Virus record (IMG/VR): IMGVR_UViG_3300029930_000003
Location: 1 to 44,177 of that record
Length of the DNA stretch: 44,177 nt
From: a virus
Lineage: Duplodnaviria; Caudoviricetes
Strand: one strand, 5' to 3'
In this document: positions 10,301 through 40,776 of the stretch, piece after piece
How positions within the stretch are numbered: the first letter of the stretch is position 1
Layout: the number at the start of each line of letters is the position of its first letter
Program-made: the position numbers and the translations under genes
The notes under the pieces: generated by a model
The model's input: the letters and a program-made list of their open reading frames with translations, nothing else
Database searches by the model: none
What the model was told of the DNA's origin: nothing

Positions 10301-13300
10301 TGAAAAACCACCGTCAGAACCGCCCGTTGAAAATGATCGAGTAAAACTAGCTAAATCGTTTTTGCAAACGTTTAGGGATGGCAACGGGTTTGCAAATATC
10401 AATGCCGCACGACAAGCTGCCGGTAATGTGCTTGGCCGGAAGATTGAACCCGGTACGTCTGATGCCAAACTGGTTGATGAGGCGGTAGAACTTGCTGGCG
10501 TAATGTATGGCCGGGAAGTGGTAGAAAAAGAAGAATATACGGAGGATATTTATAACCGGCTTGTTGAGTTTAACAACAAGCAGATGCCTACTCTTGGAGT
10601 TCGAGATAGCGTCAGCATTGCCAATCAAGCCTATAGCACACCGTTGCCACTTGCTCACGCGGCTATTGAGTTGTCGCAACTGTATGAGCTAGGCGGTACG
10701 ATCTTAGAACCTACGGCTGGTCAAGGCGCTTTGTTGATAGCAGCCAAACCGCAGAGCGCTTTTGTTAATGAAATCAATCCCGACCGAGTAGCGGCACTTG
10801 AATCCCAAGGGTTTAAGGTCAACCAGCAAGATGCTGGTTCAATGAAATTTCAGCCCAAGGCTGTAGATGTAGTGCTGACCAATCCTCCGTATGGCGAGGG
10901 TGATCAGACTTATAACATCGATGGATTTGAGACTAAGCAGCGTGATCATGCGATTGCGTTGAACGCGCTCACGGCTATGAAAGATGATGGCCGTGCTGTT
11001 CTGTTAATCGGCGGACCAAACCGTTTGGATGAGGATTCGCGTCGAACTGCTTATCGCGGCAAATCTAAGCGTGAGTTCTTCTACAAACTTTACAATGAGT
11101 ACAACGTTGTAGATCACTTCACGGTTGCGGGTGATCTATACGCTAAGCAAGGTACGACCTATCCCGTTGATATGATTGTTATCGACGGTCGGCGTGCTAA
11201 CGCGACACAGCGTTTGTTGCCGGCTGCTGCATTGCCGCGGCTTATTGAAAGTTGGGATCAACTAAGGGGAGTATTGGATGGCACAAATATTGACATGGGG
11301 CCCTTCCGGGGACGAGAGGAGGCTCCTGGGGGCGATACAGGGGCCGAAGGGGCTGCGCCTAAACCCCCAACAGCACCGCCTACAGTTGGAGGTGAGGCTG
11401 AAGAAACTGGCGGAGAAGGCAGACGACCAAGAACTGGCGCAGGTGGAGAGCCTACTACACCAAGCGGGCCTGCTGGAGGTGCCACTGGAGAGGGACGAGG
11501 TGCCGCTCCTGCTCCTAGCGGAGAACCCGGTGGTGAAAGACCTACTGGAGAAGAGGAGGGTGCCGGGATCGGGACTGCCGAAGGTGTTGGAGAAGAACGA
11601 CCCGGAGGCGGAGGAGGTTTACAACCAAGCGAGCTTGCTCCAGTGGATAGAGCCGCTGCTGCGGGGGCGCCTCGAGCACGACTGACGGAAGAGCAGACAC
11701 AGCGTCTGCAAGTTCCGTATAACAACTTCTCGCGTAATAAATCGGTTAATACTTTAGTTGCTACCAATCATCTCACGCCTATTGAAGATGCGTTTGCTAA
11801 GTTGCGTGAGAAAGTTGGCGATATTGATAATTACGTTCAAAACAAACTGCAATACACGTCGGAAGAATTTGCCAAAGCTTTTTCCGCCGAGCAGGTCGAA
11901 GCGTTAGCTCTATCGATCTACAACATTGAATCCAACCGCGGGTTTATCATTGGAGATCAGACTGGTATTGGTAAGGGCCGTGTTGTGGCCGGCATGATTC
12001 GCTACGCCATGTTAAACAAAAAGGTCCCGGTGTTTGTCACGCAAATGCCGGATCTGTACGGCGACATCATGCGAGATTTAACGGACATCGGGATGTCTAA
12101 TGTTCGTCCGTTGATGACCAATAACAACGCCTCAGTTCCTTTGGATGCCGAGGCTTTGCAATGGTACGGAGAGAAACAAGAGATTGAAGCCGACATTCAA
12201 GAGGTAATGGAAAACATTGCCGATGTGGCTGCTATAGATTTAGGTGACAAGTTTACTAGTTTGGAAGGTGACGCTCGAGACAAAGCGTTGACAGCATTTG
12301 CGCGTACGTCTACTAATCCAAATGTTGTGGAAATGCGAGCGCAGATAGCCGAACTTCGTTCTTCAATCCCTGAGCGCCGTGGCAAATTCCTTGAAACGCC
12401 TGATCTTAAGCGTCACGAGGCCGCTCTCAAACAGATGATGGACAACAATTCACTGGGCAACTATGACGTAATCTTTACGACATACGCTCAGATGGATCCA
12501 AAGAACTCTGGCAAACCTAAGCGCAACAAAGAAACTGGTTTCATGCAGTATCCCAAACCAGAACTTTTCTTCCGCCATGAGTTTTTAGATCAATTTATTG
12601 ATGATAACTCCATGTTGATCATGGACGAGTCGCATAACATTGGCAAACGATCTGGCGAGAATCAAGCTACCGGGCGCGGTAACATTGCCCGTCAGTACAT
12701 TGACAAAGCCGGCAGTGTTTTCTATTCGTCTGCTACGTTTGCAAAGAATGTTGATGTACTTGATGCGTACAACAAAACTGATATTGGCATGGCGTTTCCC
12801 GATGCACCACAACGCCTTATAGATGCTTTGTCATCTATTCCGATGCAACAAGCTGTGTCGGCAATGTTGGTTAAAGCAACACAATATCTACGCCGTGAAC
12901 GATCGTACGCCGGGATATCGTACACAAACGAAACAGTGGAAGTAGATCAAGAGGCGGCGGAAGATTTAGCTACTGCGATGCGCGACATCGTGGCGTTTGA
13001 CGAACTTAAAGCCAAATCTGTCCGTAACCTACAGGCGGATCTAGATACACAGGGCGAAGTAATGGAGGACGGTTCGCTCGCCGCGCCTCAGGTCGAAGCC
13101 ACTAACTTTACTAGCGTCATGCATAACGTACTGGGTACGTTCTTGCTGTCGTTAAAGTCTAAAGAAACAGCAGACCTAGCCATTGCTGCTATCCGACGTG
13201 GCGAGAAACCAGTCATCACGGTTTCCAACACAATGGAAATGTTTATCAAAGATTTTGCTGAGGCCAACAATATCAAGGTAGGTAATGTACTGGAGGCATC

Positions 13301-16300
13301 GTTTGCTGATGTGCTCGAGCGTTACCTTGAGAAGGTTCGCACAGTCAAGATTTCTTATCCTGACGGTCGCAAATTACCGCACTACCTCACAGATGATGAG
13401 CTTGGCGATGAAGCGTTGTCGGCATACGAAGATACGCTAGAGTTCATTCGGGCGATGGGCCGGACATTAGATATTCCGATTTCACCAATTGATGCCATCA
13501 AAGAGCGGATTGAAGAGGCTGGATACTCGATTGGTGAAATTACTGGTCGTGGCACTGTTGTTTCTACCAAAGACGGTGTTGCCAGATTAGCGCCCAGAAA
13601 AAAATCGGAACTTCGCACCGCGGGTAAAAAGAACACTATCGCTAAGTTTAACGAGGGTCAGATTGATGCGTTGATCATTAACCGGTCTGGATCTACCGGT
13701 CTATCAATGCATGCGTCAGAGAAGTTTGCTGATCAGCGTCGGCGCGTAATGATTCTGGCGCAGGCTGAACCGGACATCAACAATCACGTTCAGATGTTGG
13801 GGCGGATTAATCGTACTGGCCAAGTTACTGATGATGGGTTAGCGCCTGAAGGATTGCCGGCTGTATTTGGGTTGCCGTACTACATCCAATTGTCGGCAAA
13901 CGTTCCTATCGAGCTTCGCCCTGCGGCTGTGCTGGCTAATAAGATGGCAGCACTTAGTGCTAACACGACCGCTGGCAGGAAGACTGCTACTCAGGACGTA
14001 AAGACTCCTGATTTTATGAACAAATACGGAGATCGAGTAGCGGCAGAGGTCGTTGGAGGATCTGATCTTAACGCGACACTAGGATTCCCAGTTAAGTTTG
14101 ACGAAAACCAAAATCCTAAAGTTGAAGGCGCGATGGCCAAGGTTACGGGCCGGATTGGGTTGTTGCCGCTTAAAGAACAGTCGGCCCTCTACAAACAGTT
14201 AATTGAGGAATACAACAATCAAATAGCTTTGATTGAATCTCTTGGTCAGAACGATCTCGAGGCTCAAGTCAAACAGTTAGATGCAAAGGTGCTAGAAACG
14301 TTTGAACTTCAGGCGCAGGATGCCGGAACCGATAGTCCGTTTACTGCACCAGTGGTTCTGCAGGTCGTGGATGCAAAACGGCTGACCAAACCTTTAAAGC
14401 TTGATCAAGTTAAAGAGTTAGTTACAAAAACACTTAATGGTGCTACGCCAGCTGCCAATCGTCAAAAGCAAGTTGCAGATTTTATAACTGCAACTAACGC
14501 TGATATTGAGACGCTACGTCAATCGTTGCCAAAAGATGCGTCAGAAGATTCAAGAACTGTTGTACAAAAACAGATTGATGCAATTCAATCTGCGCAAACT
14601 ATTTTTAGCAATCGTCTCCCACGCATTGATCAAGTAGTTAGCCTAAAAAGTAAAGACGGGTTTTTGTTTGGGATTGTCGTAGACGTAAAGAAAAAAGGGC
14701 GCACCAAGTCAGCTTCGTCACTTAGTGACTGGGAAGTTAAGTTTGCCCTTGTCAACGGCGCTGCTCAGATGATGACGCTACGGCTAAGCCAATTAGCTGG
14801 AGCAAACGAATCAGAATCGGCACAAGCAGATAAGATTGTGCTCGATAACGCCACAACAATGGCTGTCCCAACAGAAGACGGATCTGGAATTGAGGAAATC
14901 CCTATTCCTCAAGCGTTTGACCGTGGTCAACTAGGTACCCGTCAAAAACGTTACATTATTACTGGCAATTTGTTGCGTGGAAAACAAGCTGCAGGTGGTG
15001 GAAATCTAGTCAGTTACACCGACGATCAGGGCAACCTTCTCCAAGGTTTCCTGATGCCGATCGGGTTTGACTATAAAAAATTAATTGCCCAACAAGCGGC
15101 AGCTATCACATCACCACAAGCTGCGTTGGAACTGGCGAACTTAGGTGGTACGGTAATAGACAAGTTGCGCATGGGTGAGACGTTTAAGCTGACTAAAGAT
15201 AAACGTGTTCCAGATCATTATCAGATTGAGGTCAGCAAAGGTGGCATTGGGAAACAGATTGTTAAAGATCGCGACGGCATGTATTTCGTTTCTGTTGGAA
15301 ACAAGATGCGCGCCACGATTGTTTCCCAAGAAGCTGCAACCAATCTTTTGATTAAAGTTCTCAGTAGTTCTGGATACAATTTAGATTTGGTTGCAGATAT
15401 ACGGGACCGAGATACCAAAAACATCATCGATGCTCGGAACAAGCCCACTAATCCTCCTCTGCAGAATATTATTCCTATTCAACCTGTTGCTCAGAAAGCC
15501 AAGGTACAAACTAAGCGTCGTATTAAATATCTTTCTAAGCAGCATTCCGAAGGCATCATTGGTGATGCAGCGTTTATAGATGGTGTTAAAACAGCGTTAG
15601 ATAAAGATACTGCGCCAGAACGTGCGCCTCGAGTGCGTGGTGCAGACTACATCAAAGAACGTCTGTTAAATGCTCGTCGTCGCGGATTGTTGTCTAATCA
15701 AGATGTTGATTTGGCATCTTGGTTCATTGATCAAAATCCTGCTTTGGTAGACGATCTTGGTATCAGTATTCGTCAAACCAAGCAAGAAGGGGTCGCTGGA
15801 TTTTACAATGCCATTGCGAGGATCATTAATTTAATTCCTCAGACTGAAACCAATAACACAACAATTCACGAAATCCTGCACCACTTAGAAAGGATGTTAC
15901 CGCCTGAGTTGCAGCAAAAGATTCGTGATCGTTGGTTAATGGACTTGACGGCTGCTGCAAGAAAAGCCAATACGCCAAACGAAGTTAAGTTCTTTGAGCT
16001 GCTCTTAGATTTCCATCTCAATCCCCCAGAAGCGGCGGTCACGGCACAACTGGAAACAGTTAAGTCAATGATTAAAAACGGTGACGTGCCGTATGATTAT
16101 TATCAGTACGTCAATCCGTCTGAGTACTGGGCGGTTAACGCGACCCGTATTCTTGAGAACCGTTTTGAGTTTGGGGAAACCGCATGGGGCCGGCTCAGAA
16201 CTTGGCTTAAAGAGTTTGGTCAAAAGATCAAAAGTATATTGGGTCTGAAGTCTGATGCAGTCATCATTAAAGCAATCAATAGTTTGGTTGCTGGCGATGG

Positions 16301-19172
16301 TAAATATCAATCGTCCACGTTACTTTTTGAAGATGAGCAGCCGGAACAGATCATTAGTACGCCGGCCAATCGCTTGGTAACGGAAGCTCAGAAGTTCCTG
16401 CAGAAACGCAAAGTGCTGCAGGCTGAGGACTTTGAAGGCGTTGATAAAGAACTCTTTGACAAATTGGTCCCAATCTATACGCCACAACGTGCAACGATCA
16501 TAGACAAAGTTGCCGCCATGAAGGATAACTTCTGGCGTCGTTTGGCTCAGGGTGTGGCGGATCAATATCGTACGATCCGAGAATACTCTGAACGGGCGTA
16601 CATGATGGCTCGTATGTCGCGAACCATTGATGGGGCGCTGGAAGGGTTAATGTTTAATGGGCAGGTTTTCCTGAGAGATGGCGCTCTGGATATTGCTCAG
16701 AATACAGAGGGACTGCTAGAGATTCTTCAACCTCTTGGTAAAGAGGTGGATAGATTCTTAATCTGGATGGCTCTGAACCGTGAGGCTCAGTTGGCGATAT
16801 CGGGTAAGCACTCTAAGTTTGAAGATATTGACGAACTGATGGAGCGTCGCAACGAACTGGCAGACGGTGAATTGGATGGTCAAAATCGGCGTCAGTTGTA
16901 CATACAGGTTCGCAATAAATTCAATGTGCTAAATCGTTCTGTGTTGCGTGTGGCCATGCAGCAGGGCCTGATCATGTCTACGGAACAGGAGATTGAGCGT
17001 ACGCAAAATCGAGATGATCTGACCGATGAGCAGAAAGCCGCCAAGATTGAGGATCTGCAGAACAATCCAGTTGGATACGAACGATTTGCGAATGACATCT
17101 GGTACATCCCGTTCTACCGAGAAATGGAAGATGGGATGCTGAGCGGGGCGATGGATTCGACTGGGTTGCCCAATCAGTATTTCAGCAAGAACATTGAGGG
17201 TGGCGAAAGTCCGATGGGCGATCTTATGGAGAACATCGTCCGGAACTGGAGTCACATATTGTCTGCGTCTATGAAGAACCGGGCGTCGATAGAAACTCTC
17301 AATGCAGCGGTTGATCAGCAAGGCGCCGCGGTCAATTTACGGGCGCCGTATGTCATGCAGGGTGGATTGGTGTATGTCCGAAGCACGGGTGAGCTTGCTG
17401 GCGGCACGGGCGAGCTGCAGGGCTGGATGACCTCTATGGGTTCTGACACGGTCAAGGTGATGATCAAGGGGGTGCCGGCCTACTTTAACGTGCTGGATCC
17501 CTTGTTGTTGGAATCAATTTCATCAATTGGCTACATGGGACCGCAAGGCAAGTTTGTCAGCGTCATGCGGGACTTTAAGAATCTGTTGCAGTTTGGCGTT
17601 ACGGTATCGCCGGCGTTTAAGGTACGCAACCTGTTCCGTGACTCAATTCAAGCTGCAGCTTTGTCTGGATATTTAGATATCTATGAAGGTTGGAAAGGGA
17701 CCGAGAAAACCAATCCCCGATACATTTCTGCGTTGGCTGGCGGAGCAATCTTCAACTTTGGGTCTATCGTTGAAGGCGATCAAGCGGCATTGGTTAAGCG
17801 GTTGATCAAGCTTGGCGTTAACTCCGATACCATTTTGAACACGCCAGATAAAGTTCAGAACGGCATTATGTCGTTGTGGAATAAGTATCAAGATTGGGGC
17901 AATCGTTCTGAAGCGGCTAATCGTATTGCCTTGTACAACAAGTTAATTAAAAACAATAAAGATCATCTTGAAGCATCATTTATGGCTAGAGACTTGCTGG
18001 ACTTTTCCATGCAAGGTTCATGGCCAGCATTTAGATATCTATCTCAAATCGTTCCGTTCTTTAACGCTCGTGTGCAAGGCTTGTACAAACTAGGTAGGGA
18101 TGGTATTTCGCCAACCGTGCGGGTGTTTTATAACACTGTCACTGGTAAAGAAATGACTACGCCGGAAGAGTTAGAACAAGCTGAGATTGATAAACAGAAA
18201 GCTAGAACCTTTACTACAGTCACGGCAGGTGTGATTGTGGCATCCCTTGCTCTGTACTTTGCTTTCAAGGATGACGAAGAATACAAGAAACGTAACGACT
18301 GGGATCGGGATAACTTCTGGTGGTTTAAGTTACCCAACATGGATTACGCAGTTCGTATACCCAAACCCTTTGAGATTGGAGCATTTGGAACTTTAGCTGA
18401 GCGTGTAGCTGAGCAAATGTTCAGTGAGGGTGCTGAAGGTAAACAGCTTGAAGACAGTATGAAACGGATGATCTGGGATACATTTGGATTGAATCCTACT
18501 CCGCAAATGTTCAAACCTTTGGTCGATCTGTATGCCAATAAAGATTCCTTTACTGGCGCTCCAATTGAATCAGCCGGCCTCGAGCGGTTATCCAAAGAAG
18601 AACGGAAGACGGATAACACTAGCCCGTTGGCTATCGCTCTAGGGGGAATTACCAATACGTTTTTGCCGGAGAAAGCCGAGATCAGCCCCGTACAGGCTGA
18701 ATATGCGATCAAGAGTTATTTTGGTTGGCTAGGTGGCACCGTTGCGTGGGCATCCAAGTATGCTGTGGCGCCGTTTAAAGAAGGTGCGTATCCAGATGAA
18801 CGCTGGACAGATTCAATCAGCCTTGGGTTTATTAAGACACTACCGTCTACTCAATCTCAATACGTTACTTCATTCTACGAGAACGCTAGACAGATTAGCC
18901 AAGCCTATGCCGATATGCGCCACTATGCCGCGGTTGGTGATTCTGCCAAAGTTCAACAGATTCTTGAGGATCGTGGCGACAAGGTGGCGTTGGCTAAGAT
19001 GTATGACAAAGCTTCGGATCAAATGGCTCAACTGCGTCAAAGTATTCGTTTGATTACCGAAGATCCCGTGATGAGCGGATCAGACAAACGGGCGCAGATT
19101 GATACGATTCAGCTGTTGATCATAGATATCGCCAAACAAGCCGAGGACCTGCGTAAAGCTACCAAGAAGTAG
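7377..19172 (+). CDS. Giant polyvalent virion protein: amino-methyltransferase + Strawberry-notch-type SF2 helicase + HExxH metallopeptidase-like domain + LPD38-like C-terminus (DarB-like)
   Basis: 3931 aa; MTase motif I LEPTAGQG (~10701) and motif IV NPPY (10881); Walker A GDQTGIGKGR (11952), DESH (~12624), helicase-C motifs GSTGLSMHA and QMLGRINRTGQ; HEILH (15867) with downstream EYWA; RIPKPFEIG near the C-terminus. Confidence 0.85.
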   Translation: MMPQYQVKGPDGYTYTIEAPEGTSQAVLQQAIQEQGEAARRQARQRTYGEALGTDTAAALTRGLGAITQFPAQLYALGTGDTETGLYQLGEKIKKYGEGLKSPGLVAREYERARRIEEAEKSGGQLPAFGVAFGETITDPALFSSFITEQLPQLLGPLGAAKIGRVAGAARAAFANASLEEGAKQAARYGTAAAIGTGALQQGADVGAEAFENMYKELVSQGIDPDVAKQTALDRARGVGASALVISTLAQKLPGAKTIEQAMARVPLAREAAKTIQTDAGRRTISRAGETRLGSGIKGLLGESASEMLEEVGGKLAANIAMQTIKPEQSLTAGLGATAALAAIGGGTLGGVLGLLRGPEPEQAAAAPVIQPPAAQPPSPKPTTAQLPSVPPVAPPSVPSESAKPLTPIEQAKTDLQTVQQQRTAIGAAFDQATEQQAALAATPNVPPDQLSAAAQQVAQLQAQYQSLLDQETSIQETLQKLITESRKTPPTAPPTVTPTAAAPTGAPPPPTTTPATTPVTPPTVTPPTAEILSFTPSGENTEIRLFKNKSGMFGVGVFDKDTQQYLPEMTLWPNEKQAREQYDSQVSKLPRAPSAGETVTPPPQAPAGVTDPALQSRLDAVVKAYRDAGMNDMADNLSSRQTKKPYNETEIAFLEESSRTNIAKQRLIEGAAAGTNTPVEPKLRTKENLYDTPYEFESVQEVPNDVTNLVLNKLNDISRQVAQQGIQISDIDNRFPKPILEFKSQFSQLSGQFLRYANQLKGMKRGYKRSELTKFEQAERELGQMLGVDLKPYRPEFKAEPTIQPTEPKAPVSEPSTETKSADKLFDDILDEEMPDQKEETASKLFDAILEEEMPEKASPAGEAPAAPRTAKEAAASAAKNAAEGFDQAIDGLVELFGGKQKGRLSSGIGFDEETYAKAKPLFQKAVASLGRAVKDIAEAIRIIIQELAKRLNKAQIANLKPYVVRFVEDEVKSEKPPSEPPVENDRVKLAKSFLQTFRDGNGFANINAARQAAGNVLGRKIEPGTSDAKLVDEAVELAGVMYGREVVEKEEYTEDIYNRLVEFNNKQMPTLGVRDSVSIANQAYSTPLPLAHAAIELSQLYELGGTILEPTAGQGALLIAAKPQSAFVNEINPDRVAALESQGFKVNQQDAGSMKFQPKAVDVVLTNPPYGEGDQTYNIDGFETKQRDHAIALNALTAMKDDGRAVLLIGGPNRLDEDSRRTAYRGKSKREFFYKLYNEYNVVDHFTVAGDLYAKQGTTYPVDMIVIDGRRANATQRLLPAAALPRLIESWDQLRGVLDGTNIDMGPFRGREEAPGGDTGAEGAAPKPPTAPPTVGGEAEETGGEGRRPRTGAGGEPTTPSGPAGGATGEGRGAAPAPSGEPGGERPTGEEEGAGIGTAEGVGEERPGGGGGLQPSELAPVDRAAAAGAPRARLTEEQTQRLQVPYNNFSRNKSVNTLVATNHLTPIEDAFAKLREKVGDIDNYVQNKLQYTSEEFAKAFSAEQVEALALSIYNIESNRGFIIGDQTGIGKGRVVAGMIRYAMLNKKVPVFVTQMPDLYGDIMRDLTDIGMSNVRPLMTNNNASVPLDAEALQWYGEKQEIEADIQEVMENIADVAAIDLGDKFTSLEGDARDKALTAFARTSTNPNVVEMRAQIAELRSSIPERRGKFLETPDLKRHEAALKQMMDNNSLGNYDVIFTTYAQMDPKNSGKPKRNKETGFMQYPKPELFFRHEFLDQFIDDNSMLIMDESHNIGKRSGENQATGRGNIARQYIDKAGSVFYSSATFAKNVDVLDAYNKTDIGMAFPDAPQRLIDALSSIPMQQAVSAMLVKATQYLRRERSYAGISYTNETVEVDQEAAEDLATAMRDIVAFDELKAKSVRNLQADLDTQGEVMEDGSLAAPQVEATNFTSVMHNVLGTFLLSLKSKETADLAIAAIRRGEKPVITVSNTMEMFIKDFAEANNIKVGNVLEASFADVLERYLEKVRTVKISYPDGRKLPHYLTDDELGDEALSAYEDTLEFIRAMGRTLDIPISPIDAIKERIEEAGYSIGEITGRGTVVSTKDGVARLAPRKKSELRTAGKKNTIAKFNEGQIDALIINRSGSTGLSMHASEKFADQRRRVMILAQAEPDINNHVQMLGRINRTGQVTDDGLAPEGLPAVFGLPYYIQLSANVPIELRPAAVLANKMAALSANTTAGRKTATQDVKTPDFMNKYGDRVAAEVVGGSDLNATLGFPVKFDENQNPKVEGAMAKVTGRIGLLPLKEQSALYKQLIEEYNNQIALIESLGQNDLEAQVKQLDAKVLETFELQAQDAGTDSPFTAPVVLQVVDAKRLTKPLKLDQVKELVTKTLNGATPAANRQKQVADFITATNADIETLRQSLPKDASEDSRTVVQKQIDAIQSAQTIFSNRLPRIDQVVSLKSKDGFLFGIVVDVKKKGRTKSASSLSDWEVKFALVNGAAQMMTLRLSQLAGANESESAQADKIVLDNATTMAVPTEDGSGIEEIPIPQAFDRGQLGTRQKRYIITGNLLRGKQAAGGGNLVSYTDDQGNLLQGFLMPIGFDYKKLIAQQAAAITSPQAALELANLGGTVIDKLRMGETFKLTKDKRVPDHYQIEVSKGGIGKQIVKDRDGMYFVSVGNKMRATIVSQEAATNLLIKVLSSSGYNLDLVADIRDRDTKNIIDARNKPTNPPLQNIIPIQPVAQKAKVQTKRRIKYLSKQHSEGIIGDAAFIDGVKTALDKDTAPERAPRVRGADYIKERLLNARRRGLLSNQDVDLASWFIDQNPALVDDLGISIRQTKQEGVAGFYNAIARIINLIPQTETNNTTIHEILHHLERMLPPELQQKIRDRWLMDLTAAARKANTPNEVKFFELLLDFHLNPPEAAVTAQLETVKSMIKNGDVPYDYYQYVNPSEYWAVNATRILENRFEFGETAWGRLRTWLKEFGQKIKSILGLKSDAVIIKAINSLVAGDGKYQSSTLLFEDEQPEQIISTPANRLVTEAQKFLQKRKVLQAEDFEGVDKELFDKLVPIYTPQRATIIDKVAAMKDNFWRRLAQGVADQYRTIREYSERAYMMARMSRTIDGALEGLMFNGQVFLRDGALDIAQNTEGLLEILQPLGKEVDRFLIWMALNREAQLAISGKHSKFEDIDELMERRNELADGELDGQNRRQLYIQVRNKFNVLNRSVLRVAMQQGLIMSTEQEIERTQNRDDLTDEQKAAKIEDLQNNPVGYERFANDIWYIPFYREMEDGMLSGAMDSTGLPNQYFSKNIEGGESPMGDLMENIVRNWSHILSASMKNRASIETLNAAVDQQGAAVNLRAPYVMQGGLVYVRSTGELAGGTGELQGWMTSMGSDTVKVMIKGVPAYFNVLDPLLLESISSIGYMGPQGKFVSVMRDFKNLLQFGVTVSPAFKVRNLFRDSIQAAALSGYLDIYEGWKGTEKTNPRYISALAGGAIFNFGSIVEGDQAALVKRLIKLGVNSDTILNTPDKVQNGIMSLWNKYQDWGNRSEAANRIALYNKLIKNNKDHLEASFMARDLLDFSMQGSWPAFRYLSQIVPFFNARVQGLYKLGRDGISPTVRVFYNTVTGKEMTTPEELEQAEIDKQKARTFTTVTAGVIVASLALYFAFKDDEEYKKRNDWDRDNFWWFKLPNMDYAVRIPKPFEIGAFGTLAERVAEQMFSEGAEGKQLEDSMKRMIWDTFGLNPTPQMFKPLVDLYANKDSFTGAPIESAGLERLSKEERKTDNTSPLAIALGGITNTFLPEKAEISPVQAEYAIKSYFGWLGGTVAWASKYAVAPFKEGAYPDERWTDSISLGFIKTLPSTQSQYVTSFYENARQISQAYADMRHYAAVGDSAKVQQILEDRGDKVALAKMYDKASDQMAQLRQSIRLITEDPVMSGSDKRAQIDTIQLLIIDIAKQAEDLRKATKK

Positions 19173-23869: not shown

Positions 23870-24114
23870 GACAAAATCCTCTTATCACTTTTTAAGTTGT
23901 CGCAGAACGAAGCGTACAAATCATCGCGTTTTTGCGCCGGCATATCCATCACCTCGGCTACCGTGATCACCCCTACGATGAACGCCATCAGAGCTTGAAT
24001 CGGCGTCACCTCTCGCTCTGCAGTTGTCAACATCTGTTCCAAAAACTTCTTAGCCGCGGCAGCATTGTTTAGCCAGTTCTCCATGCTTGCTTCCCAGTCT
24101 TGTTCTGATTCCAT
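23866..24114 (-). CDS. Hypothetical protein, first gene of the leftward operon
   Basis: 82 aa, AGGAGAGAG RBS. Confidence 0.65.
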   Translation of the reverse strand: MESEQDWEASMENWLNNAAAAKKFLEQMLTTAEREVTPIQALMAFIVGVITVAEVMDMPAQKRDDLYASFCDNLKSDKRILS

Positions 24115-24144
24115 CGCTCTCTCCTAACAGGTACAAGGGAGCGC

Positions 24145-24190
24145 ATCCTAACAGGTAGCTTTGCATCGTGTCAACAACCACGTTTAATAT
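24145..24190. promoter_or_regulatory. Overlapping divergent sigma70-like promoters
   Basis: Leftward TTGACA(24174-24169)-18-TAGGAT with TG extension; rightward TTGCAT(24161)-18-TAATAT(24185). Confidence 0.55.
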
Positions 24191-24196
24191 TTCGGA

Positions 24197-24481
24197 ATGA
24201 GAGCCGCTCGAGTCGATGCCAATCAGCAGGAGATCGTAAAAGCCTTACGATCAGTAGGGGCTTATGTCCGGGTGATTACTCAGGGTGATGGGTTGCCGGA
24301 CTTGTTGGTGGGTTACCGCGGGGTGACCTTGTTGATGGAGGTCAAAGACGGATCCAAACCGCCATCAGCGCAGAAGTTGACAGAGGCAGAACAGAAGTTT
24401 TTTGACGAGTGGACAGGGGGGGCGTTGATCAAAGTGACCTCAGTCGAGGATGTCATTGCCGCCCTAAGGAAATTTGGGTAA
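24197..24481 (+). CDS. VRR-NUC-like PD-(D/E)XK nuclease / resolvase
   Basis: RAARVDANQ...GLPDLLVGYRG..LMEVKDG...LTEAEQKF. Confidence 0.8.
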   Translation: MRAARVDANQQEIVKALRSVGAYVRVITQGDGLPDLLVGYRGVTLLMEVKDGSKPPSAQKLTEAEQKFFDEWTGGALIKVTSVEDVIAALRKFG

Positions 24482-24514
24482 ACTTGGGTCTCTCTCTCCT
24501 TCGTTTGAAGTTTA

Positions 24515-24545
24515 CAGGGCTCCCTCTCCGGCCCTGTTTTTTTTT
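24515..24545 (+). terminator. Rho-independent terminator
   Basis: ACAGGGC-loop-GCCCTGT followed by a T-run. Confidence 0.8.
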
Positions 24546-24547
24546 GC

Positions 24548-24576
24548 TTGACAAAAGTTTTTAAGCCTCGGATAAT
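24548..24576 (+). promoter_or_regulatory. Strong sigma70 promoter
   Basis: TTGACA-17 bp-GATAAT. Confidence 0.75.
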
Positions 24577-24583
24577 CCGTTCC

Positions 24584-24691
24584 GTTGGTGTGAGAGCCGA
24601 CAGAGCCGTCTAGCCTGACTCCGACCCCAGTAGGGGTAACCTAAGCAGCAAACTTAGGTCTCTCACCGGGGTCAGCCTAGACGGTTTTTTT
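24584..24691 (+). ncRNA. Structured leader RNA / branched terminator with loop pseudoknot (c4/P4-CI-like architecture)
   Basis: Hairpin 24584-24601; branched stem 24605-24685 ending in a U-run; loop GTGAGAG complementary to CTCTCAC. Confidence 0.6.
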
Positions 24692-24703
24692 ATCTCCACA
24701 TCA

Positions 24704-24934
24704 GCCGTACTCCGCACGTTAGCAAGGGCCTGAATGGGCTGCGCGGAAGCAAACACACGGCGTCGATACACCCCCGAATGTCCGTTACCAGCCTGTCAGT
24801 GAGGGACTGGTGTAGGTATGGTTAACAAGGGTGGTAGACAAGGACCATACCGAACGAATCGCTGCCTCCGGGGAGCTTGGGTAGCACAAAGAAAAGTGCT
24901 GCTGGAGCAGGGATGGTTTAGCTACCACCCCTTG
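24704..24934 (+). ncRNA. Candidate ~230-nt multi-helix RNA with two pseudoknots
   Basis: At least six helices and two loop-distal pairings readable by eye; no ORF of 60 aa or more. Confidence 0.55.
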
Positions 24935-25022
24935 GGGTTGTTGTAAGCTTTTGAAATCAACAGGTAGGAATTTTTTTTCTTGGGTGTTGACTTTTGTATG
25001 GCAAAAAGCGTAAGGTTTGGAC

Positions 25023-25042
25023 TTTGATAACTAGTTATCAAA
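25023..25042. promoter_or_regulatory. 20-bp perfect palindrome, copy 2 (operator position before the ParB-like gene)
   Basis: Between a putative promoter (TTGACT 24987 / TAAGGT 25011) and the AAGGAG RBS. Confidence 0.8.
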
Positions 25043-25060
25043 ACTTTTAAGGAGAACTGG

Positions 25061-25870
25061 ATGTACCTCAAGCTAGATAACATCGTTGTGGATGCGAAAT
25101 TTCAGTCTCGAGTTCAGTTGGACAGGGAGAAGATTGAGGACTATGCGGAGCTGTACAACGACGGGGTGAAGTTCCCGCCGGTCAACGTAGTGATGGTGGA
25201 CTCGGTAGGTGCCGTATTGGTAGATGGCTTCCACAGGTTTAAGGCGGTAGAGCAGCTTGGGGACTTTGAGATTGAGGTTGTTGTGCTGCCGGGGAGCACC
25301 GAGGATGACGCGTTGCTAGCGTCTTGCGCGGCGAACAAGGCACACGGACTTAACCGGACGGACGCGGACAAGCGTAAAGCGGTAGAGCAGCTGTTGGCGC
25401 ATCCCAAGTTCAGCAAGTGGACACAGCGGGAAATTGCGAAGCATTGCGGCGTTACGCAGCCGTATGTTCACAAGATTATGAAAGACATGGAGATCCCGTC
25501 GCCGCGGCCCCGCAGCGCACCCAATCAGAAGCCTGTGAAAGAGGTTCCGGAGGTCAAAGCAACTCCTGTGGTGGAACCTGTTGAACCGCAGCAGGTTGAT
25601 AACGAAGATCTGCAGGTGTTGGTCGCGGAGAACGAGCGGCTGCAGGAGCAGATAGCTTTGGGAACGTTACCTGAAGAGGACCGAGAGGCGGGTCGTCGGC
25701 TCATGGACGACATGAAAGCTGAAATCAAGTTGCTGCAGGCTGAGTTGAAGACGGTAACGACCAGTCGTGACACGTTTCAAGCAGAGAACGCACAACTGAA
25801 GAAGCAAGTCATTGCACAACAGCGGCGAATCAAAAAACTGGAACAAGAACTTATGCAGAAAGCGGCGTAA
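25061..25870 (+). CDS. ParB/Srx-like N-terminal domain + HTH + coiled-coil protein
   Basis: FPPVNV...LVDGFHRFKA ParB motif, ANKAHGL, WTQREIAKHCGVTQPYV HTH, C-terminal heptads. Confidence 0.85.
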   Translation: MYLKLDNIVVDAKFQSRVQLDREKIEDYAELYNDGVKFPPVNVVMVDSVGAVLVDGFHRFKAVEQLGDFEIEVVVLPGSTEDDALLASCAANKAHGLNRTDADKRKAVEQLLAHPKFSKWTQREIAKHCGVTQPYVHKIMKDMEIPSPRPRSAPNQKPVKEVPEVKATPVVEPVEPQQVDNEDLQVLVAENERLQEQIALGTLPEEDREAGRRLMDDMKAEIKLLQAELKTVTTSRDTFQAENAQLKKQVIAQQRRIKKLEQELMQKAA

Positions 25871-25898: not shown

Positions 25899-26222
25899 AT
25901 GATTAATCGCGTGACTGCAATTGTTCTATTGACTTTGAGCCTAAGCGTACAGGCTGAGTTCAAGGATGGGAATGATCTTTTGAAAGACCTTGAATCAAAC
26001 AACCTAGTCGATGAAATGGTGGCCCTTGGATACATCATAGGGGTGTCGGATGTAGGAGTCGGAATCATTCACTGTGTGCCACACGGGGTGCGGGCCAAAC
26101 AACTGGTGGACATGACCCGCAACTACCTTAAGCTATATCCATCTGACCGACATTTATCCGCAGACACGCTGATTAATCGGATGTTGAAGGCGCAATGGCC
26201 CTGTAAGAGGAGCAATACATGA
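25899..26222 (+). CDS. Secreted Rap1a/Tai-family immunity-like protein
   Basis: Signal peptide ending VQA; DGNDLL, GYIIGVSD, C.P, YLKLYPSDRHLSA, terminal WPC. Confidence 0.75.
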   Translation: MINRVTAIVLLTLSLSVQAEFKDGNDLLKDLESNNLVDEMVALGYIIGVSDVGVGIIHCVPHGVRAKQLVDMTRNYLKLYPSDRHLSADTLINRMLKAQWPCKRSNT

Positions 26223-28079: not shown

Positions 28080-28331
28080 ATGACAAACAAACAACATCAG
28101 GCTTTAGAGGTAGCTTTAAAACTTATGCAACACATGGCCAAGTCTGAACATCCATATCATCGTGCTACTTTGCCGGGTGAATTAGAGATGGCTATTGAAA
28201 TAGTTCATCAAGCTCTTGAAGAATCTCAATTTACATTGATAGGTTACTTTCATCCTTTAAGTCAAAGAGTAAGGTTAGGTAAACAGGTTTTGCATTCTTC
28301 TTGGAAACCAATTTACATAGAAAACAAATGA
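28080..28331 (+). CDS. Hypothetical protein
   Basis: 83-aa ORF with ATGA overlap to the helicase. Confidence 0.55.
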   Translation: MTNKQHQALEVALKLMQHMAKSEHPYHRATLPGELEMAIEIVHQALEESQFTLIGYFHPLSQRVRLGKQVLHSSWKPIYIENK

Positions 28332-29866
28332 GTCTATTTCAAAAATTCAATGAACAGCAAGCCGCTAAGCCGGCTGATCAAAACGTTTCTGCTATTCAAT
28401 TAAGAGACTATCAGGTCGCTTCAATTGATAGTTTGCGTGTTGGATTTCGAGAGGGACACGGTCGGCAAGTTTTGGCTGCAGCGACGGGGGCTGGCAAATC
28501 AATCATCGCTATGAGCATGTTAGATGCTGCCCAATCCAAAGGGTCGCGTGTCATGTTTATATGTGATCGCAGGGTGTTGGTAAATCAATTTTCAAAACAT
28601 CTAGATAGGCATGGCATAGATCATGGTTGCTACATGGCCGGTCATTGGAGACATCGACCGGAGGCTCGAGTCCAGATTGCAAGCATTCAAACTCTTGAAC
28701 GTATGGAATTGTGGCCAGTTGTAGATTTGGTTGTTGTCGATGAAATTCACGCTGTGATGCGTAAGTCTTTGAAGCGATTTCTTGAAACGAGACCTCAGGT
28801 CAAGGTCATTGGTCTTACCGCAACGCCGTTTCATGCGGAGCTGCCTAAATATTTTTCTGCAGTAACCAACGTTATAACGATGCAAGATTTGGTCAAGGAC
28901 CAGTATCTAGTACCTTTCAAAGTCTTCATCGCTCACGAGATTAACGTTAAAGGTGTCCCGGTTACTGCTGGCGAGTGGAAAAAGGATGAACTAGAGAAGC
29001 GTGGTCTGCAGATTGTGGGAGACGTGGTAGCGGACTATGTCAAGATTTCTCAGCAAGTATTCCAAGGATTTCGTAAGACAATTTGCTTCAGTTCTGGGGT
29101 CAACCATAGTGCTGAATTGGTTCGTAGGTTTGCTGAGGTAGGACTCAATTTTGTTTCAATTAGTTATCTGGATTCGGAAGAATACAAGCAGCAAGTTCTT
29201 GAAGATTTTAGCCGATCTGATACGACTATCAACGGTGTAATTAGTTCTGACATTTTGACGCGAGGGTTTGATCAAACAGATGTTGAGCATTTGATTATTG
29301 CCAAACCTTTACGCAAATCATTTTCGATGCATGTTCAGATGATTGGCCGCGGGGCTCGTGCGCATCACAATAAGGAATTTTGTGTAGTGCAGGACAACAG
29401 CGGCAATTGGTTACGATTTCAAGATGATTGGGAGCAGCTGTACACAATCGGTGTTCAAAAATTAGGTTCAGATGTTGACAGCAAGCCTCGCAAGGAACCG
29501 ACTCCCAAAGAAAAAGAAGCGGCGAAGTGTCCTAAATGTGCAGCTCTATGGCAGGGCGGCGACATGTGTATGGCGTGTGGCTATGTCCGAATGCGTCGTA
29601 GTAATGTTCAAGAAGTACCGGGGGAGATGCGTGAATTAAAAACTTCCGGTACTACCTTTGCTGAAAAACAGAATTGGTGGAGCATGCTGATGTATAAAGT
29701 TTTGTACGATGGTTGGGGCAGAAACAGAGCGTTAGCACAGTACAGAGAAAGATATGGAGTGTGGCCGCATGGCATGTCGGATGTTCCTGCAACTCCATCG
29801 GATGAATTTAATAGGTGGACCAAAAGGAGTCTTATCCGGTTTTTGAAGAGCAAGGGGAGGCGCTGA
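28328..29866 (+). CDS. SF2 DEAD/DEAH-box helicase with C-terminal Zn ribbon
   Basis: LRDYQ, ATGAGKS, DEIH, GLTATP, QMIGRGAR, CPKC..CMAC; likely start ATG 28328. Confidence 0.92.
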   Translation: MSLFQKFNEQQAAKPADQNVSAIQLRDYQVASIDSLRVGFREGHGRQVLAAATGAGKSIIAMSMLDAAQSKGSRVMFICDRRVLVNQFSKHLDRHGIDHGCYMAGHWRHRPEARVQIASIQTLERMELWPVVDLVVVDEIHAVMRKSLKRFLETRPQVKVIGLTATPFHAELPKYFSAVTNVITMQDLVKDQYLVPFKVFIAHEINVKGVPVTAGEWKKDELEKRGLQIVGDVVADYVKISQQVFQGFRKTICFSSGVNHSAELVRRFAEVGLNFVSISYLDSEEYKQQVLEDFSRSDTTINGVISSDILTRGFDQTDVEHLIIAKPLRKSFSMHVQMIGRGARAHHNKEFCVVQDNSGNWLRFQDDWEQLYTIGVQKLGSDVDSKPRKEPTPKEKEAAKCPKCAALWQGGDMCMACGYVRMRRSNVQEVPGEMRELKTSGTTFAEKQNWWSMLMYKVLYDGWGRNRALAQYRERYGVWPHGMSDVPATPSDEFNRWTKRSLIRFLKSKGRR

Positions 29867-30747
29867 TGGATCTAATCAGCTTTTGTCGTCAACAAGGAAT
29901 CCTGTTAGAAGCGATGCCCACGATTGGGGTATGGACGCGTCACCCAACTGTAGATCATCCGAAGAAACGCAACGGTGCGGTTAAATTTTTGGGAGACTTT
30001 GCGTTTGTGCAAAATCATGCAACGCAAACTTCTGTGTCTGTGTGGCGTCGCACCGGTGTATTGACAGAATCAGAACGCCGGATGATCGACGTGACTTTGC
30101 GCGGTGCTAAAGACCGGATGATCAAAGGTCAGGAACGTGCAGCTCTTCGAGCCGCGGCGATGTTCAAGCATGCGCACCCTTCTACCCATCCATACCTAGA
30201 AAAGAAGGGATTTCCCAAGGTGACTGGGTTCGTGATTGAACTGGATGATCAACCAACATTGTGTGTGCCGATGTTTGTGGGCAATCGGATGGTTGGATGC
30301 CAGATGATTAAACCGGACGGTCAAAAGCGATTTTTGTCCGGGCAGCGCACGAGCGGGGCTGAGTTCCGTTTTGATAAGCGTGGCATGCATATCCTTGTCG
30401 AGGGATACGCGACAGGGTTAGCCGTACGGGAAGCGATGACGGCTTTGCGGTTGCCATACACAATTCACGTCACCTTTAGCGCCGGCAACATGAAAACGAT
30501 AGCGGCTGGATTACCGGATGGTCTAGTGATTGCTGACAACGATGCATCAGGGACAGGTGAGCGGGTGGCCAAAGAGATCGGATGGCCGTTTTGGATGAGT
30601 GATGTTGTTGGAGAGGATGCCAACGATGCATGGCGTCGGCAGGGCACTTTCAAGCTAAGCCAAGCGATTAGTGCGTTGTTACGGACCGAAAGATTGGCCG
30701 GACGGTCACGTTCTGGGCATCAAGGTCTTGGTGTAACTGCCGCATAA
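29866..30747 (+). CDS. Toprim-domain primase-like protein
   Basis: HPYLEKKG, EGYATG, ADND motifs; GGAGG RBS and TGATG coupling at 29866. Confidence 0.85.
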   Translation: MDLISFCRQQGILLEAMPTIGVWTRHPTVDHPKKRNGAVKFLGDFAFVQNHATQTSVSVWRRTGVLTESERRMIDVTLRGAKDRMIKGQERAALRAAAMFKHAHPSTHPYLEKKGFPKVTGFVIELDDQPTLCVPMFVGNRMVGCQMIKPDGQKRFLSGQRTSGAEFRFDKRGMHILVEGYATGLAVREAMTALRLPYTIHVTFSAGNMKTIAAGLPDGLVIADNDASGTGERVAKEIGWPFWMSDVVGEDANDAWRRQGTFKLSQAISALLRTERLAGRSRSGHQGLGVTAA

Positions 30748-35911: not shown

Positions 35912-36223
35912 GTGGGGGGGTATATTTTGAAGAGGGAGATAAGGTATAACAAGGAGATGGCGAAGAGGTATGAAGAGGAAGAGGTGAGGGGTAGGGAGAT
36001 GAGTCCTGCGCAGAGGGAAGTATTTTTGATAGTAGATGAGTATTGGAAGAGGTATGGATGTAGTCCTACGTTGAGGGAGATAGCGTATTTGAGGGGGAAG
36101 ATGGGGATGAGGAATACGCAGAGGTTAGTGGATAGGTTAGTGGAGTTGGGGGTATTGAAGAAGGTGAAGAATTTAGGTCGTACGGTGAGGCCGACGTACA
36201 TTAATTTTAGGTTTCTGGAGTAG
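35912..36223 (+). CDS. LexA-like DNA-binding domain protein (no peptidase domain)
   Basis: SPAQREVF..Y..RYGCSPTLREIA...LVELGVL....RT; start uncertain. Confidence 0.75.
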   Translation: MGGYILKREIRYNKEMAKRYEEEEVRGREMSPAQREVFLIVDEYWKRYGCSPTLREIAYLRGKMGMRNTQRLVDRLVELGVLKKVKNLGRTVRPTYINFRFLE

Positions 36224-36224
36224 G

Positions 36225-36290
36225 TTTGATAATGGTTATCAAAATGGTTGAGTGCGGGTATGGGTTATTTTTGATAACTAGTTATCAAAA
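36225..36290. promoter_or_regulatory. Palindrome copy 3 (36269-36290) plus a variant TTTGATAA-TGG-TTATCAAA (36225-36243)
   Basis: Direct reading; intergenic, upstream of terL. Confidence 0.75.
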
Positions 36291-36357
36291 TTACTGCAAT
36301 GCACAAATAGTAGATGTATTAAGCCGGGAAATTTTGGCACTTTGAGAGTGTGCTGCG

Positions 36358-37845: not shown

Positions 37846-37853
37846 GGGCAAAC

Positions 37854-40235: not shown

Positions 40236-40433
40236 ATGGCTAAAACCATCTATGATGTGCTGCAGGAAAAGTTAGAAGATCACAAAAAGTCACATACTGA
40301 CTTTTTAGCGAGTGGTAGAGCGGCAGACTATGCCCTGTATCAAAATCAGTGCGGGATCATTCGAGGTCTTGACCTAGCACTGCGAGAAATCAATGACCTT
40401 GCGCAAAACTTCATGGATGAAAGCGATGAATGA
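40236..40433 (+). CDS. Small head-module hypothetical protein
   Basis: 65 aa, Y..CG.IRGL motif, between portal and GroES-like gene. Confidence 0.7.
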   Translation: MAKTIYDVLQEKLEDHKKSHTDFLASGRAADYALYQNQCGIIRGLDLALREINDLAQNFMDESDE

Positions 40434-40776
40434 AAATGAATTTGAAGCACAACTTCCTAAACCGGTAGGGTATAGATTGCTCATTGCACTACCACAAGTA
40501 GAGGATGAATATGATTCTGGGTTAGTCAAAGCTGATCAAACCAAGCATGCCGAAATGGTGCTGTCTATGATGGGTGCTGTCATAGACATGGGCGAACAGG
40601 CTTATGCCGACAAAGAGAGGTTCCCAAATGGACCTTGGTGCCAAGTTGGTGATTTTGTGATGTTTAGACCGAATTCTGGCACTCGATTTAGGGTGAACAA
40701 TCAAGAATATCGGTTACTAAATGACGACTCTATTGAGGCGGTAGTTGCCGATCCTCGAGGTGTTACGCGAGCTTGA
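40426..40776 (+). CDS. groES: GroES-like co-chaperonin
   Basis: PKPVGYRLLI, SGLV, VIDMG, VGDFV, YRLLNDDSIEAVV. Confidence 0.85.
   Translation: MNENEFEAQLPKPVGYRLLIALPQVEDEYDSGLVKADQTKHAEMVLSMMGAVIDMGEQAYADKERFPNGPWCQVGDFVMFRPNSGTRFRVNNQEYRLLNDDSIEAVVADPRGVTRA

What the first reader, a model, noticed from the sequence alone, without database searches (positions are those of the whole stretch)
24704..24934. Large doubly pseudoknotted non-coding RNA at the position of a replication initiator/origin
Seen: helices GCCGT/ACGGC (24704-08/24757-61), TCCGC/GCGGA (24711-15/24743-47), CCCCG/CGGGG (24772-76/24869-73), ACCAG/CTGGT (24787-91/24807-11), GGTATGGTT/GACCATACC (24815-23/24843-51) and GTAGCAC/GTGCTGC (24881-87/24896-902). 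Two loops pair distally: CAGTGA (24797-802) with TCGCTG (24859-64), and GGGTGGTAG (24829-37) with CTACCACCC (24922-30). The latter strand has an alternative local partner at 24910-17. G-U-type pairs favour a + strand RNA. It lies behind an attenuator and ahead of ParB/helicase/primase, and no initiator or polymerase gene is visible. Inference: a candidate replication-primer/origin RNA (ColE1 RNA II-like logic), ribozyme or riboswitch; I do not recognise the family.
Basis: partly seen in the sequence, partly recalled or inferred. Interest (0 to 1): 0.8.

Follow-up and report, generated by a model that had tools for sequence, protein, structure and literature searches.

The report
Knotted phage RNA, likely replication origin
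This gene-free stretch of an aquatic phage belongs to an uncatalogued, widespread family of heavily knotted RNA-type structures that occur once per genome beside the DNA-copying genes, and it likely starts phage DNA replication by pairing back onto the DNA it was made from, in place of the usual starter protein.

Summary
The element is real. All eight helices pair as written, but homologues reject two (GCCGT/ACGGC, CCCCG/CGGGG) and add others. The revised 46-pair fold is 97% paired in 61 sequences, has at least four crossing helices and carries an RNA signature on the + strand. It has no Rfam match and hundreds of relatives in aquatic phage contigs. A 55-nt pseudoknot module is joined to several 3' types: A (this window), B and others.

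It is single-copy in 48 of 49 records, sits behind a promoter and a covarying attenuator, and lies beside three unrelated replication modules, before or after them. One module is an initiator reduced to its C-terminal part. The orphan Rfam motif Betaproteobacteria-1 fills the same slot and never co-occurred (0/50, 0/19). Type B and Betaproteobacteria-1 both end in a co-varying direct repeat; for type B no RNA partner was found nearby, as expected if the RNA pairs with template DNA.

Best reading (0.55): an RNA-primed, ColE1-like origin that is not a ColE1 homologue. Against it: transcription and replication are untested, the repeat signal is weak in type A, one record also has a full initiator, and the type-A 3' motif may be a ribosome-binding site.

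The parts
24548..24576 (+). sigma70-type promoter (TTGACA-17-GATAAT), predicted to drive leader and element
   Evidence: 11 of 12 matches; promoter-like sites upstream in 39 of 93 homologues versus 9.7 in shuffles
24587..24598 (+). 5' leader segment complementary to 24659-24666 in the terminator loop; predicted anti-terminator
   Evidence: sequence; leader-to-loop complement 7.94 nt own versus 5.30+-0.13 cross-shuffled in 68 loci
24606..24691 (+). long terminator-like hairpin (arms 24606-23 and 24667-84) with U-run, ending about 13 nt before the element
   Evidence: strict terminator test met in 68 of 163 loci versus 2 of 160 control positions
24704..24756 (+). conserved 5' module shared by all types: 24706-08/24716-18, 24711-14/24744-47, 24715/24722, hairpin 24727-30/24737-40, loop pairs 24735-36/24754-55
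   Evidence: 77 sequences, 14 pairs, 96.7% paired versus 73.4% shuffled, 12 pairs with double changes
24757..24786 (+). hairpin P2 with near-invariant unpaired loop CACCCC (24769-74), the same sequence as the 3' strand; candidate template-DNA anchor
   Evidence: 99.2% paired; identity signal weak; three-way variant L344
24787..24864 (+). hairpin P3 (24787-811) and hairpin P4 (24815-851); pseudoknot PK1 24797-802/24859-64
   Evidence: further compensatory PK1 variants
24865..24921 (+). 3-bp hairpin 24865-73, a further covarying pair from 24868 to about 24879-80, and a variable hairpin region
   Evidence: variable part undecided
24922..24937 (+). 3' strand of pseudoknot PK2 (pairs with P4 loop 24829-37) followed by a G-run; conserved end of the element
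   Evidence: 3' consensus of 99 type-A ends
24941..25060 (+). A+T-rich spacer (GC 0.33 versus 0.57 in the element); candidate unwinding region
   Evidence: perfect palindrome 25023-42
25061..25870 (+). ParB-like protein
   Evidence: phrog_1033, E 1.5e-20
28301..30747 (+). superfamily-2 helicase (28301-29866) and Toprim primase (29815-30747)
   Evidence: Pfam ResIII, Helicase_C, Toprim_3; phrog_16, phrog_2249

Best explanation
The tract is a member of an uncatalogued family of about 235-nt multi-pseudoknot structures on the + strand that likely acts as an RNA-primed replication origin of the phage. Shown: covarying fold, RNA-type pairing bias, one copy per genome, upstream promoter and attenuator motifs, position beside replication genes. 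Inferred steps: (1) host RNA polymerase starts at 24548-76 and mostly stops at the terminator, with read-through when the leader pairs with the terminator loop; the short terminated leader could block this in trans and so set the rate; (2) the read-through RNA folds, and an unpaired segment identical to the DNA at the 3' end (the repeat in type B, the CACCC loop in type A) pairs with the template strand while PK2 frees the G-run; (3) the persistent RNA-DNA hybrid opens the A+T-rich DNA beyond the 3' end and gives a primer for host polymerases; (4) the phage primase and helicase, a gp4-like primase-helicase, or the shortened initiator with host helicase then load on the displaced strand.
For: Fold and strand; G-U versus A-C cells 209:23 and 88:2; GNRA loops 95 of 282 on + versus 10 on - in type B. 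Single copy in 48 of 49 records. Window-like primase in 23 of 49, always on the element's strand, the element lying before it in 18 and after it in 5. phrog_270 matched only in its C-terminal part in 11 of 49, all within 1.5 kb and on the same strand, none of them with the window-like primase. gp4-like primase-helicase in 18 of 75 type-B loci. Family A polymerase in 1 of 49. Type-B direct repeat in 101 of 101 complete ends, 7.28 nt versus 5.47+-0.10, repeated in 31 new metagenome loci, 7.10 versus 5.91+-0.16, with no partner in the element or in 365 nt upstream. Betaproteobacteria-1 sits by the same genes, has the same signature (7.05 versus 4.42+-0.21, n=37) and never co-occurred: 0 of 50 and 0 of 19, with positive controls 19/19 and 48/49. 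GC falls right after the 3' end. The ColE1 record has an upstream and downstream G6 repeat and ends in a G-run plus CCTATGG, like the type-A consensus end. Precedents: PMC5043065, PMC7157519, PMC3035462, PMC3016281 (passages).
Against: In type A, the window's own type, no variable direct repeat stands out (96 sequences, best excess 0.3-0.4 nt). The loop-to-3' identity is 5.62 versus 5.42+-0.05; L344 supports it, while L125 has a mismatched loop. The type-A 3' NTG is in frame with an ORF of 60 aa or more in 19 of 57 cases (10 and 4 in the other frames), so it can be a ribosome-binding site plus start codon; the window itself lacks the CCTATG. Record G049 has the element and a full-length 242-aa initiator; G047 has a longer match and G019 has a family A polymerase. 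Only phrog_270 was searched among initiator families. Of 22 loci chosen by primase alone, only 2 had the 5' module, one on the opposite strand. No homologue was found on plasmids. No antisense promoter was found. Third-codon skew does not invert at the element. Records are related, so counts are not independent events.
Confidence: 0.55

Rival explanations
1. A cis-acting translational or transcriptional switch: PK2 frees a ribosome-binding site at the 3' end and the knotted RNA controls the downstream replication operon, like the pseudoknot-activated rep genes of IncI/IncB plasmids (recalled) or a riboswitch.
For: A G-rich run with NTG at a fixed offset (49 of 57), N mostly A, T or G, in frame with an ORF of 60 aa or more in 19 of 57. 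PK2's 3' strand abuts it. ParB-like gene downstream in 27 of 62 type-A loci.
Against: Median ORF from that codon is 16 aa. The nearest annotated genes after the element lie on the opposite strand in L188, L190, L163 and L139, and terminase or large unrelated genes follow in L172, L157, L171, L185. The element lies after the primase or initiator in 7 records. The terminator is upstream of the element. Type B lacks this motif.
Confidence: 0.17
2. A stand-alone RNA that works in trans or on RNA polymerase, for example a processive antiterminator like HK022 put (recalled) or a scaffold that binds host replication proteins; the repeats are targets of a separate antisense RNA or protein.
For: Own promoter and attenuator; compact conserved 5' module reused with many 3' domains; a partner elsewhere in the genome was not excluded.
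Against: At least 12 different repeat cores change in both copies together, which fits base pairing better than protein reading. No complement within 500 nt upstream in 97 of 101. It does not explain the tie to shortened initiators.
Confidence: 0.15
3. A catalytic RNA (self-cleaving or processing ribozyme) that matures the early transcript.
For: Dense pseudoknots and invariant unpaired bases.
Against: No Rfam family matches, even at E up to 10. Size and variable 3' domains differ from known small ribozymes (established knowledge). It does not explain the direct repeats or the single-copy link to replication genes.
Confidence: 0.06
4. A single-stranded DNA signal (primase or primosome assembly site) rather than an RNA.
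For: Next to primase genes; PMC5737381 notes such motifs may act as ssDNA (passage); no transcript shown.
Against: G-U far exceeds A-C, and GNRA and UNCG loops are confined to the + strand; promoter and attenuator are conserved upstream.
Confidence: 0.07

Closest known systems
ColE1 RNA II pre-primer (NC_001371, locus L200; PMC5043065 and PMC8683028 passages)
   Same: Promoter-driven folded RNA ending at a G-run; same-sense repeat of an upstream segment near the 3' end (G6 at 928-933 and 1175-1180 in L200); type-A consensus end resembles ColE1 1181-1192; no initiator needed. That the upstream G-run pairs with template DNA in ColE1 is recalled, not found in the library.
   Different: No sequence or model match to L200 or to plasmids. 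About 235 nt (355 nt from the promoter) versus about 550. Attenuator instead of an overlapping antisense RNA I. In phages with their own primase and helicase.
Rfam RF02932 Betaproteobacteria-1 RNA (function unknown)
   Same: Single copy in phages, beside the same ParB-helicase-primase and shortened-initiator genes; co-varying 3' direct repeat beyond the modelled 120 nt.
   Different: No match either way; different fold; never in the same record among those searched.
RNA-based prophage origins of cluster A mycobacteriophages (PMC7157519, passages)
   Same: Phage non-coding RNA beside par genes, standing where RepA is absent.
   Different: Actinobacterial; required for plasmid prophage maintenance; no blastn match in the phage collection; parA and parS not looked for here.
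MRB replicons (PMC3035462) and the PAGEV, ARRPOF and GEBRO motifs (PMC5737381), passages
   Same: Rep-less replication regions with structured RNAs of 223-349 nt (the three motifs) or about 465 nt (MRB RNA II).
   Different: Plasmid-borne; no Rfam or blastn match.
T4 oriF/oriG R-loop origins (PMC3016281, passages)
   Same: Promoter plus A+T-rich downstream region, RNA as primer.
   Different: T4 R-loops do not depend on specific sequence or an ornate fold, and T4 has its own replisome.

Membership tests
ColE1-type replicon | Sequence homology to the ColE1 ori | tested here: not met
   No hit of model R1 or profile HMMs in L200; only chance-level blastn hits in 72,556 plasmids
ColE1-type replicon | Overlapping antisense RNA I with its own promoter | tested here: not met
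   The only - strand promoter-like site in 24000-25200 is at 24174, pointing away; consensus scan only
ColE1-type replicon | Upstream RNA segment identical to DNA near the 3' end | tested here: inconclusive
   Met in type B and Betaproteobacteria-1; weak in the window's type A
ColE1-type replicon | No protein initiator needed | tested here: inconclusive
   phrog_270 absent in 33 of 49, C-terminal only in 11, N-terminal only in 3, longer or full in 2; other initiator families not searched; window 70% complete
ColE1-type replicon | Persistent R-loop, RNase H processing, Pol I extension | not testable with these tools
   Needs experiments
Betaproteobacteria-1 (RF02932) | Score above gathering threshold | tested here: not met
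   0 of 50 records including the window; control 19 of 19
PAGEV, ARRPOF, GEBRO, Polynucleobacter-1 or any Rfam 15 family | cmscan match | tested here: not met
Mycobacteriophage RNA-based prophage origin | Expressed RNA next to parABS, required for autonomous replication | not testable with these tools
   ParB-like neighbour found; parA and parS not searched; no RNA run on record
Riboswitch or 5' leader | Consistently upstream of a same-strand gene or of its own terminator | tested here: not met
   Opposite-strand genes follow in 4 loci with annotated hits; terminator precedes the element
Self-cleaving ribozymes | Known catalytic core or cleavage activity | tested here: inconclusive
   No Rfam match; activity not testable
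Structured non-coding RNA | Covariation, strand-specific G-U and GNRA bias, no conserved ORF | tested here: met
   best open frame 15 of 74 and lengths mod 3 of 23/15/25

The most novel reading that the evidence does not exclude
A large class of aquatic tailed phages starts DNA replication with interchangeable ornate RNAs. Unrelated folds (types A, B, further types and the orphan Betaproteobacteria-1) converge on one trick, an RNA segment that re-pairs with its own template DNA. They have replaced the origin-binding half of the phage initiator and are dosed by an attenuator whose terminated leader acts as the copy-control RNA.
Probability: 0.35. Interest if true: 0.9.

Novelty: new variant of a known kind. 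Interest (0 to 1): 0.74.

Why it matters
If right, it explains how many small polymerase-less aquatic phages initiate replication, extends RNA-primed origins well beyond ColE1, MRB plasmids and cluster A mycobacteriophages, and gives an orphan Rfam motif a testable job. The co-varying direct repeat is a simple signature for RNA-to-DNA pairing that can be scanned for in other orphan RNAs. Even if the function is wrong, this is a well-supported uncatalogued RNA family with a compact triple-crossing 55-nt module suited to structure work.

Tried and rejected
Expression: no RNA holder listed; the four runs laid were contigs, probably DNA; no evidence either way. A second promoter downstream of the element looked common by eye but is not enriched (17 of 99 versus 10.9, maximum 21): dropped. 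The cloverleaf insert in L139 and L004 resembled C4 antisense RNA from recall; Rfam did not match (the last without a positive control): not claimed. A cis partner for the type-B repeat in the element or leader was not found. P4-loop pairing with the P2 loop shows no covariation (4.51 versus 4.57). Skew inversion at the element was not seen. blastn found nothing for the window in phage isolates and one weak type-B hit. One search used a faulty pattern and found nothing. The search with P0001 gave only 5 close loci and no solved structure. A Pfam check of the initiators was not completed. PMC10085705 (sections 12 and 17) is unrelated. Literature searches listed no paper whose title or abstract start points to this family. 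PMC10690425: six motifs absent from the 3 of 6 supplementary files searched; the other files and the PMC5737381 supplement could not be read and may hold this motif or comments on Betaproteobacteria-1. Earlier scan notes had no look-alike sequence.

Full report
SETTING. The window is a whole virus record, linear and 70% complete, with terminase, portal and capsid genes and a recombination cluster on the - strand. The tract lies between a small endonuclease gene (24197-24481) and a ParB-like gene (25061), followed by a superfamily-2 helicase and a Toprim primase. Rfam has no match at gathering level or at E up to 10 beyond noise.

OBSERVATION. All helices pair as written. A 15-nt pattern from the 5' end gave 120 viral loci, of which 74 passed a filter for the 5' domain. 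A 21-nt core pattern gave 75 loci, 62 distinct. Alignment A1 holds the window and 60 relatives, 51-69% identical to it. Left out were 9 loci without a found 3' end, 2 long ones and 1 identical to the window. Most rows were picked by the core pattern, so that core is invariant by construction. GCCGT/ACGGC and CCCCG/CGGGG fail; both pseudoknots hold. PK1 has compensatory variants in added loci, and PK2 covaries at 24834-24925. The first 55 nt form a separate module with three crossing elements, 96.7% paired over 77 sequences of types A and B. G-U cells outnumber A-C cells 209:23 and 88:2, and type B has GNRA loops in 95 of 282 hairpins on + against 10 on -. No reading frame is conserved. It is therefore a structured non-coding element of RNA type on the + strand; transcription itself is not shown.

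FAMILY. The 5' module is joined to different 3' domains. Type A is the window's. Type B gave 120 loci with about 300 estimated. A metagenome scan gave 120 of about 600: 49 B, 29 A, 33 others (many divergent A) and 9 short. Only 4 hits occur in species genomes, all MAG contigs, three of them betaproteobacterial. Upstream, promoter-like sites are enriched (39 of 93 versus 9.7). A terminator hairpin ends about 19 nt before the element in 68 of 163 loci by a strict test (2 of 160 controls), and the leader's 5' end covaries with the terminator loop (7.94 versus 5.30+-0.13). So the element is predicted to be made only by read-through of an attenuator.

LINK TO REPLICATION. I searched 49 longer records that carry the element, 35 of them at least 90% complete. 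The 5' module occurs exactly once in 48; the miss has a divergent 5' end. A family A polymerase occurs in 1. The window's primase occurs in 23, always on the same strand and 0.2-11 kb away; the element lies before it in 18 and after it in 5 (distances from their coordinates). The initiator family phrog_270 matches 16 records. In 11 only the C-terminal part matches; all 11 lie within 1.5 kb on the same strand and none has the window's primase. Two of those frames (230 and 249 aa) leave room for an unrecognised N-terminus. Three records match only the N-terminal part, one matches 102-253, and G049 has a full-length initiator about 7 kb from the element. A third module, a T7 gp4-like primase-helicase, follows type B in 18 of 75 loci. 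In four type-A loci the nearest annotated genes after the element face it.

A SECOND OCCUPANT OF THE SLOT. Among 22 loci chosen by the primase alone, two carry the 5' module, one of them on the opposite strand, and one has a type-A 3' part at its edge. Six match Rfam Betaproteobacteria-1 right after the primase stop, and two more share contigs with pattern hits of that family. One has another tract; in the other ten nothing was recognised, and several are short. The cultured Acidovorax phage AP1 has ParB, helicase, primase and then that element. Among 57 distinct pattern hits, some by chance, tblastn found primase in 17, helicase in 14, the shortened initiator in 6 and ParB in 4. The two families never co-occurred: RF02932 in 0 of 50 element records and 19 of 19 controls; the 5' module in 0 of those 19. 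Lineage could contribute to this pattern, but both families sit by the same genes.

MECHANISTIC CLUE. In type B a 5-11 nt direct repeat, 43-58 nt apart, flanks the last G-rich hairpin in 101 of 101 complete ends (6 of 111 distinct loci were truncated and dropped). It has at least 12 different cores and scores 7.28 versus 5.47+-0.10 cross-shuffled. New metagenome loci repeat this (n=31, 5 dropped). The exact complement lies nearby in only 4 of 101, and own cores pair no better than foreign cores with the element or the leader. Betaproteobacteria-1 shows the same pattern (7.05 versus 4.42, n=37). Two copies that change together without a nearby RNA partner are what one expects if the first copy, as RNA, pairs with the template strand of the second. 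In ColE1 a G6 run at 928-933 is repeated at 1175-1180, just before CCTATGG; its role in forming the hybrid is recalled from the older literature and was not found in the library. The persistent hybrid itself is described in PMC5043065 (passages). For type A the evidence is thinner. The P2 loop CACCC equals the 3' strand but hardly varies. L344 changes the loop, the 3' strand and the P4 loop together, and L125 breaks the match. The type-A consensus end, a G-run then AACCTATG, resembles the ColE1 end (a post hoc likeness), yet it also reads as a ribosome-binding site and start codon in about a third of cases, and the window lacks it. GC content drops just after the 3' end in both types and in the window.

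VERDICT. The best explanation is an RNA-primed origin controlled by attenuation (0.55). Rivals are a cis translational or transcriptional switch (0.17), a trans-acting or polymerase-binding RNA (0.15), an ssDNA signal (0.07) and a ribozyme (0.06). It works like ColE1 RNA II by inference but is not a member: homology and RNA I tests fail. It is not Betaproteobacteria-1, PAGEV, ARRPOF or GEBRO. Phage precedents are the mycobacteriophage RNA origins (PMC7157519, passages) and T4 R-loop origins (PMC3016281, passages). The literature searches listed under Tried and rejected showed no description of this family, but unread supplements of PMC10690425 and PMC5737381 may contain it. Earlier notes of this scan raise similar ideas for other phage RNAs and one argues against a replication role for a Betaproteobacteria-1 relative; they are unchecked leads, not support. 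Novelty: new variant of a known kind. Interest 0.74.

Noticed in passing
L359-L363, L379, L502-L571, L381 (Acidovorax phage AP1): Betaproteobacteria-1 extends about 100 nt beyond the Rfam model, with a terminal hairpin flanked by a co-varying direct repeat; it follows the primase stop in 17 of 57 distinct pattern hits, some of which are chance matches.
   Followed up: yes
L355:1985-2235; L373:5500-6000 (- strand); L089, L102, L197, L371, L392, L410, L411, L423, L443, L457, L482, L492: Further 3' domain types or unrelated structured tracts behind the same kind of attenuator; L355's precedes a shortened initiator. No Rfam match for the ones scanned.
   Followed up: partly
L383:1193-1900: Two different elements in tandem, both starting with the 5' module.
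   Followed up: no
L139, L004, L010, L013, L023, L027, L120, L461, L483; L162, L182, L190: A cloverleaf-like RNA flanked by inverted repeats is inserted between attenuator and element or inside hairpin P2 of type B; no Rfam match where scanned.
   Followed up: partly
L199 (Sulfuritalea MAG), L197, L196, L198: Only 4 hits in 185,579 species genomes, all MAG contigs; L199 looks like a small element beside chromosomal genes.
   Followed up: no
window 7377-19172 (+): 3931-aa polyvalent protein with LPD38 and strawberry-notch-like helicase domains.
   Followed up: no
window 40393-40776 and 25899-26222 (+): Phage-encoded GroES-like Cpn10 and a Rap1a immunity-family protein inside the replication operon.
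   Followed up: no
window 24541-58 / 24990-25007 and 25023-42: An 18-nt inverted repeat linking the promoter and the downstream spacer, and a perfect 20-nt palindrome before the ParB-like gene; possible operator or parS-like sites.
   Followed up: no
window 36001-38000: Very strong GC skew (+0.52, +0.38) over the large terminase gene.
   Followed up: no
L107:516-587 (-): A tRNA gene directly upstream of the promoter of a type-B element.
   Followed up: no
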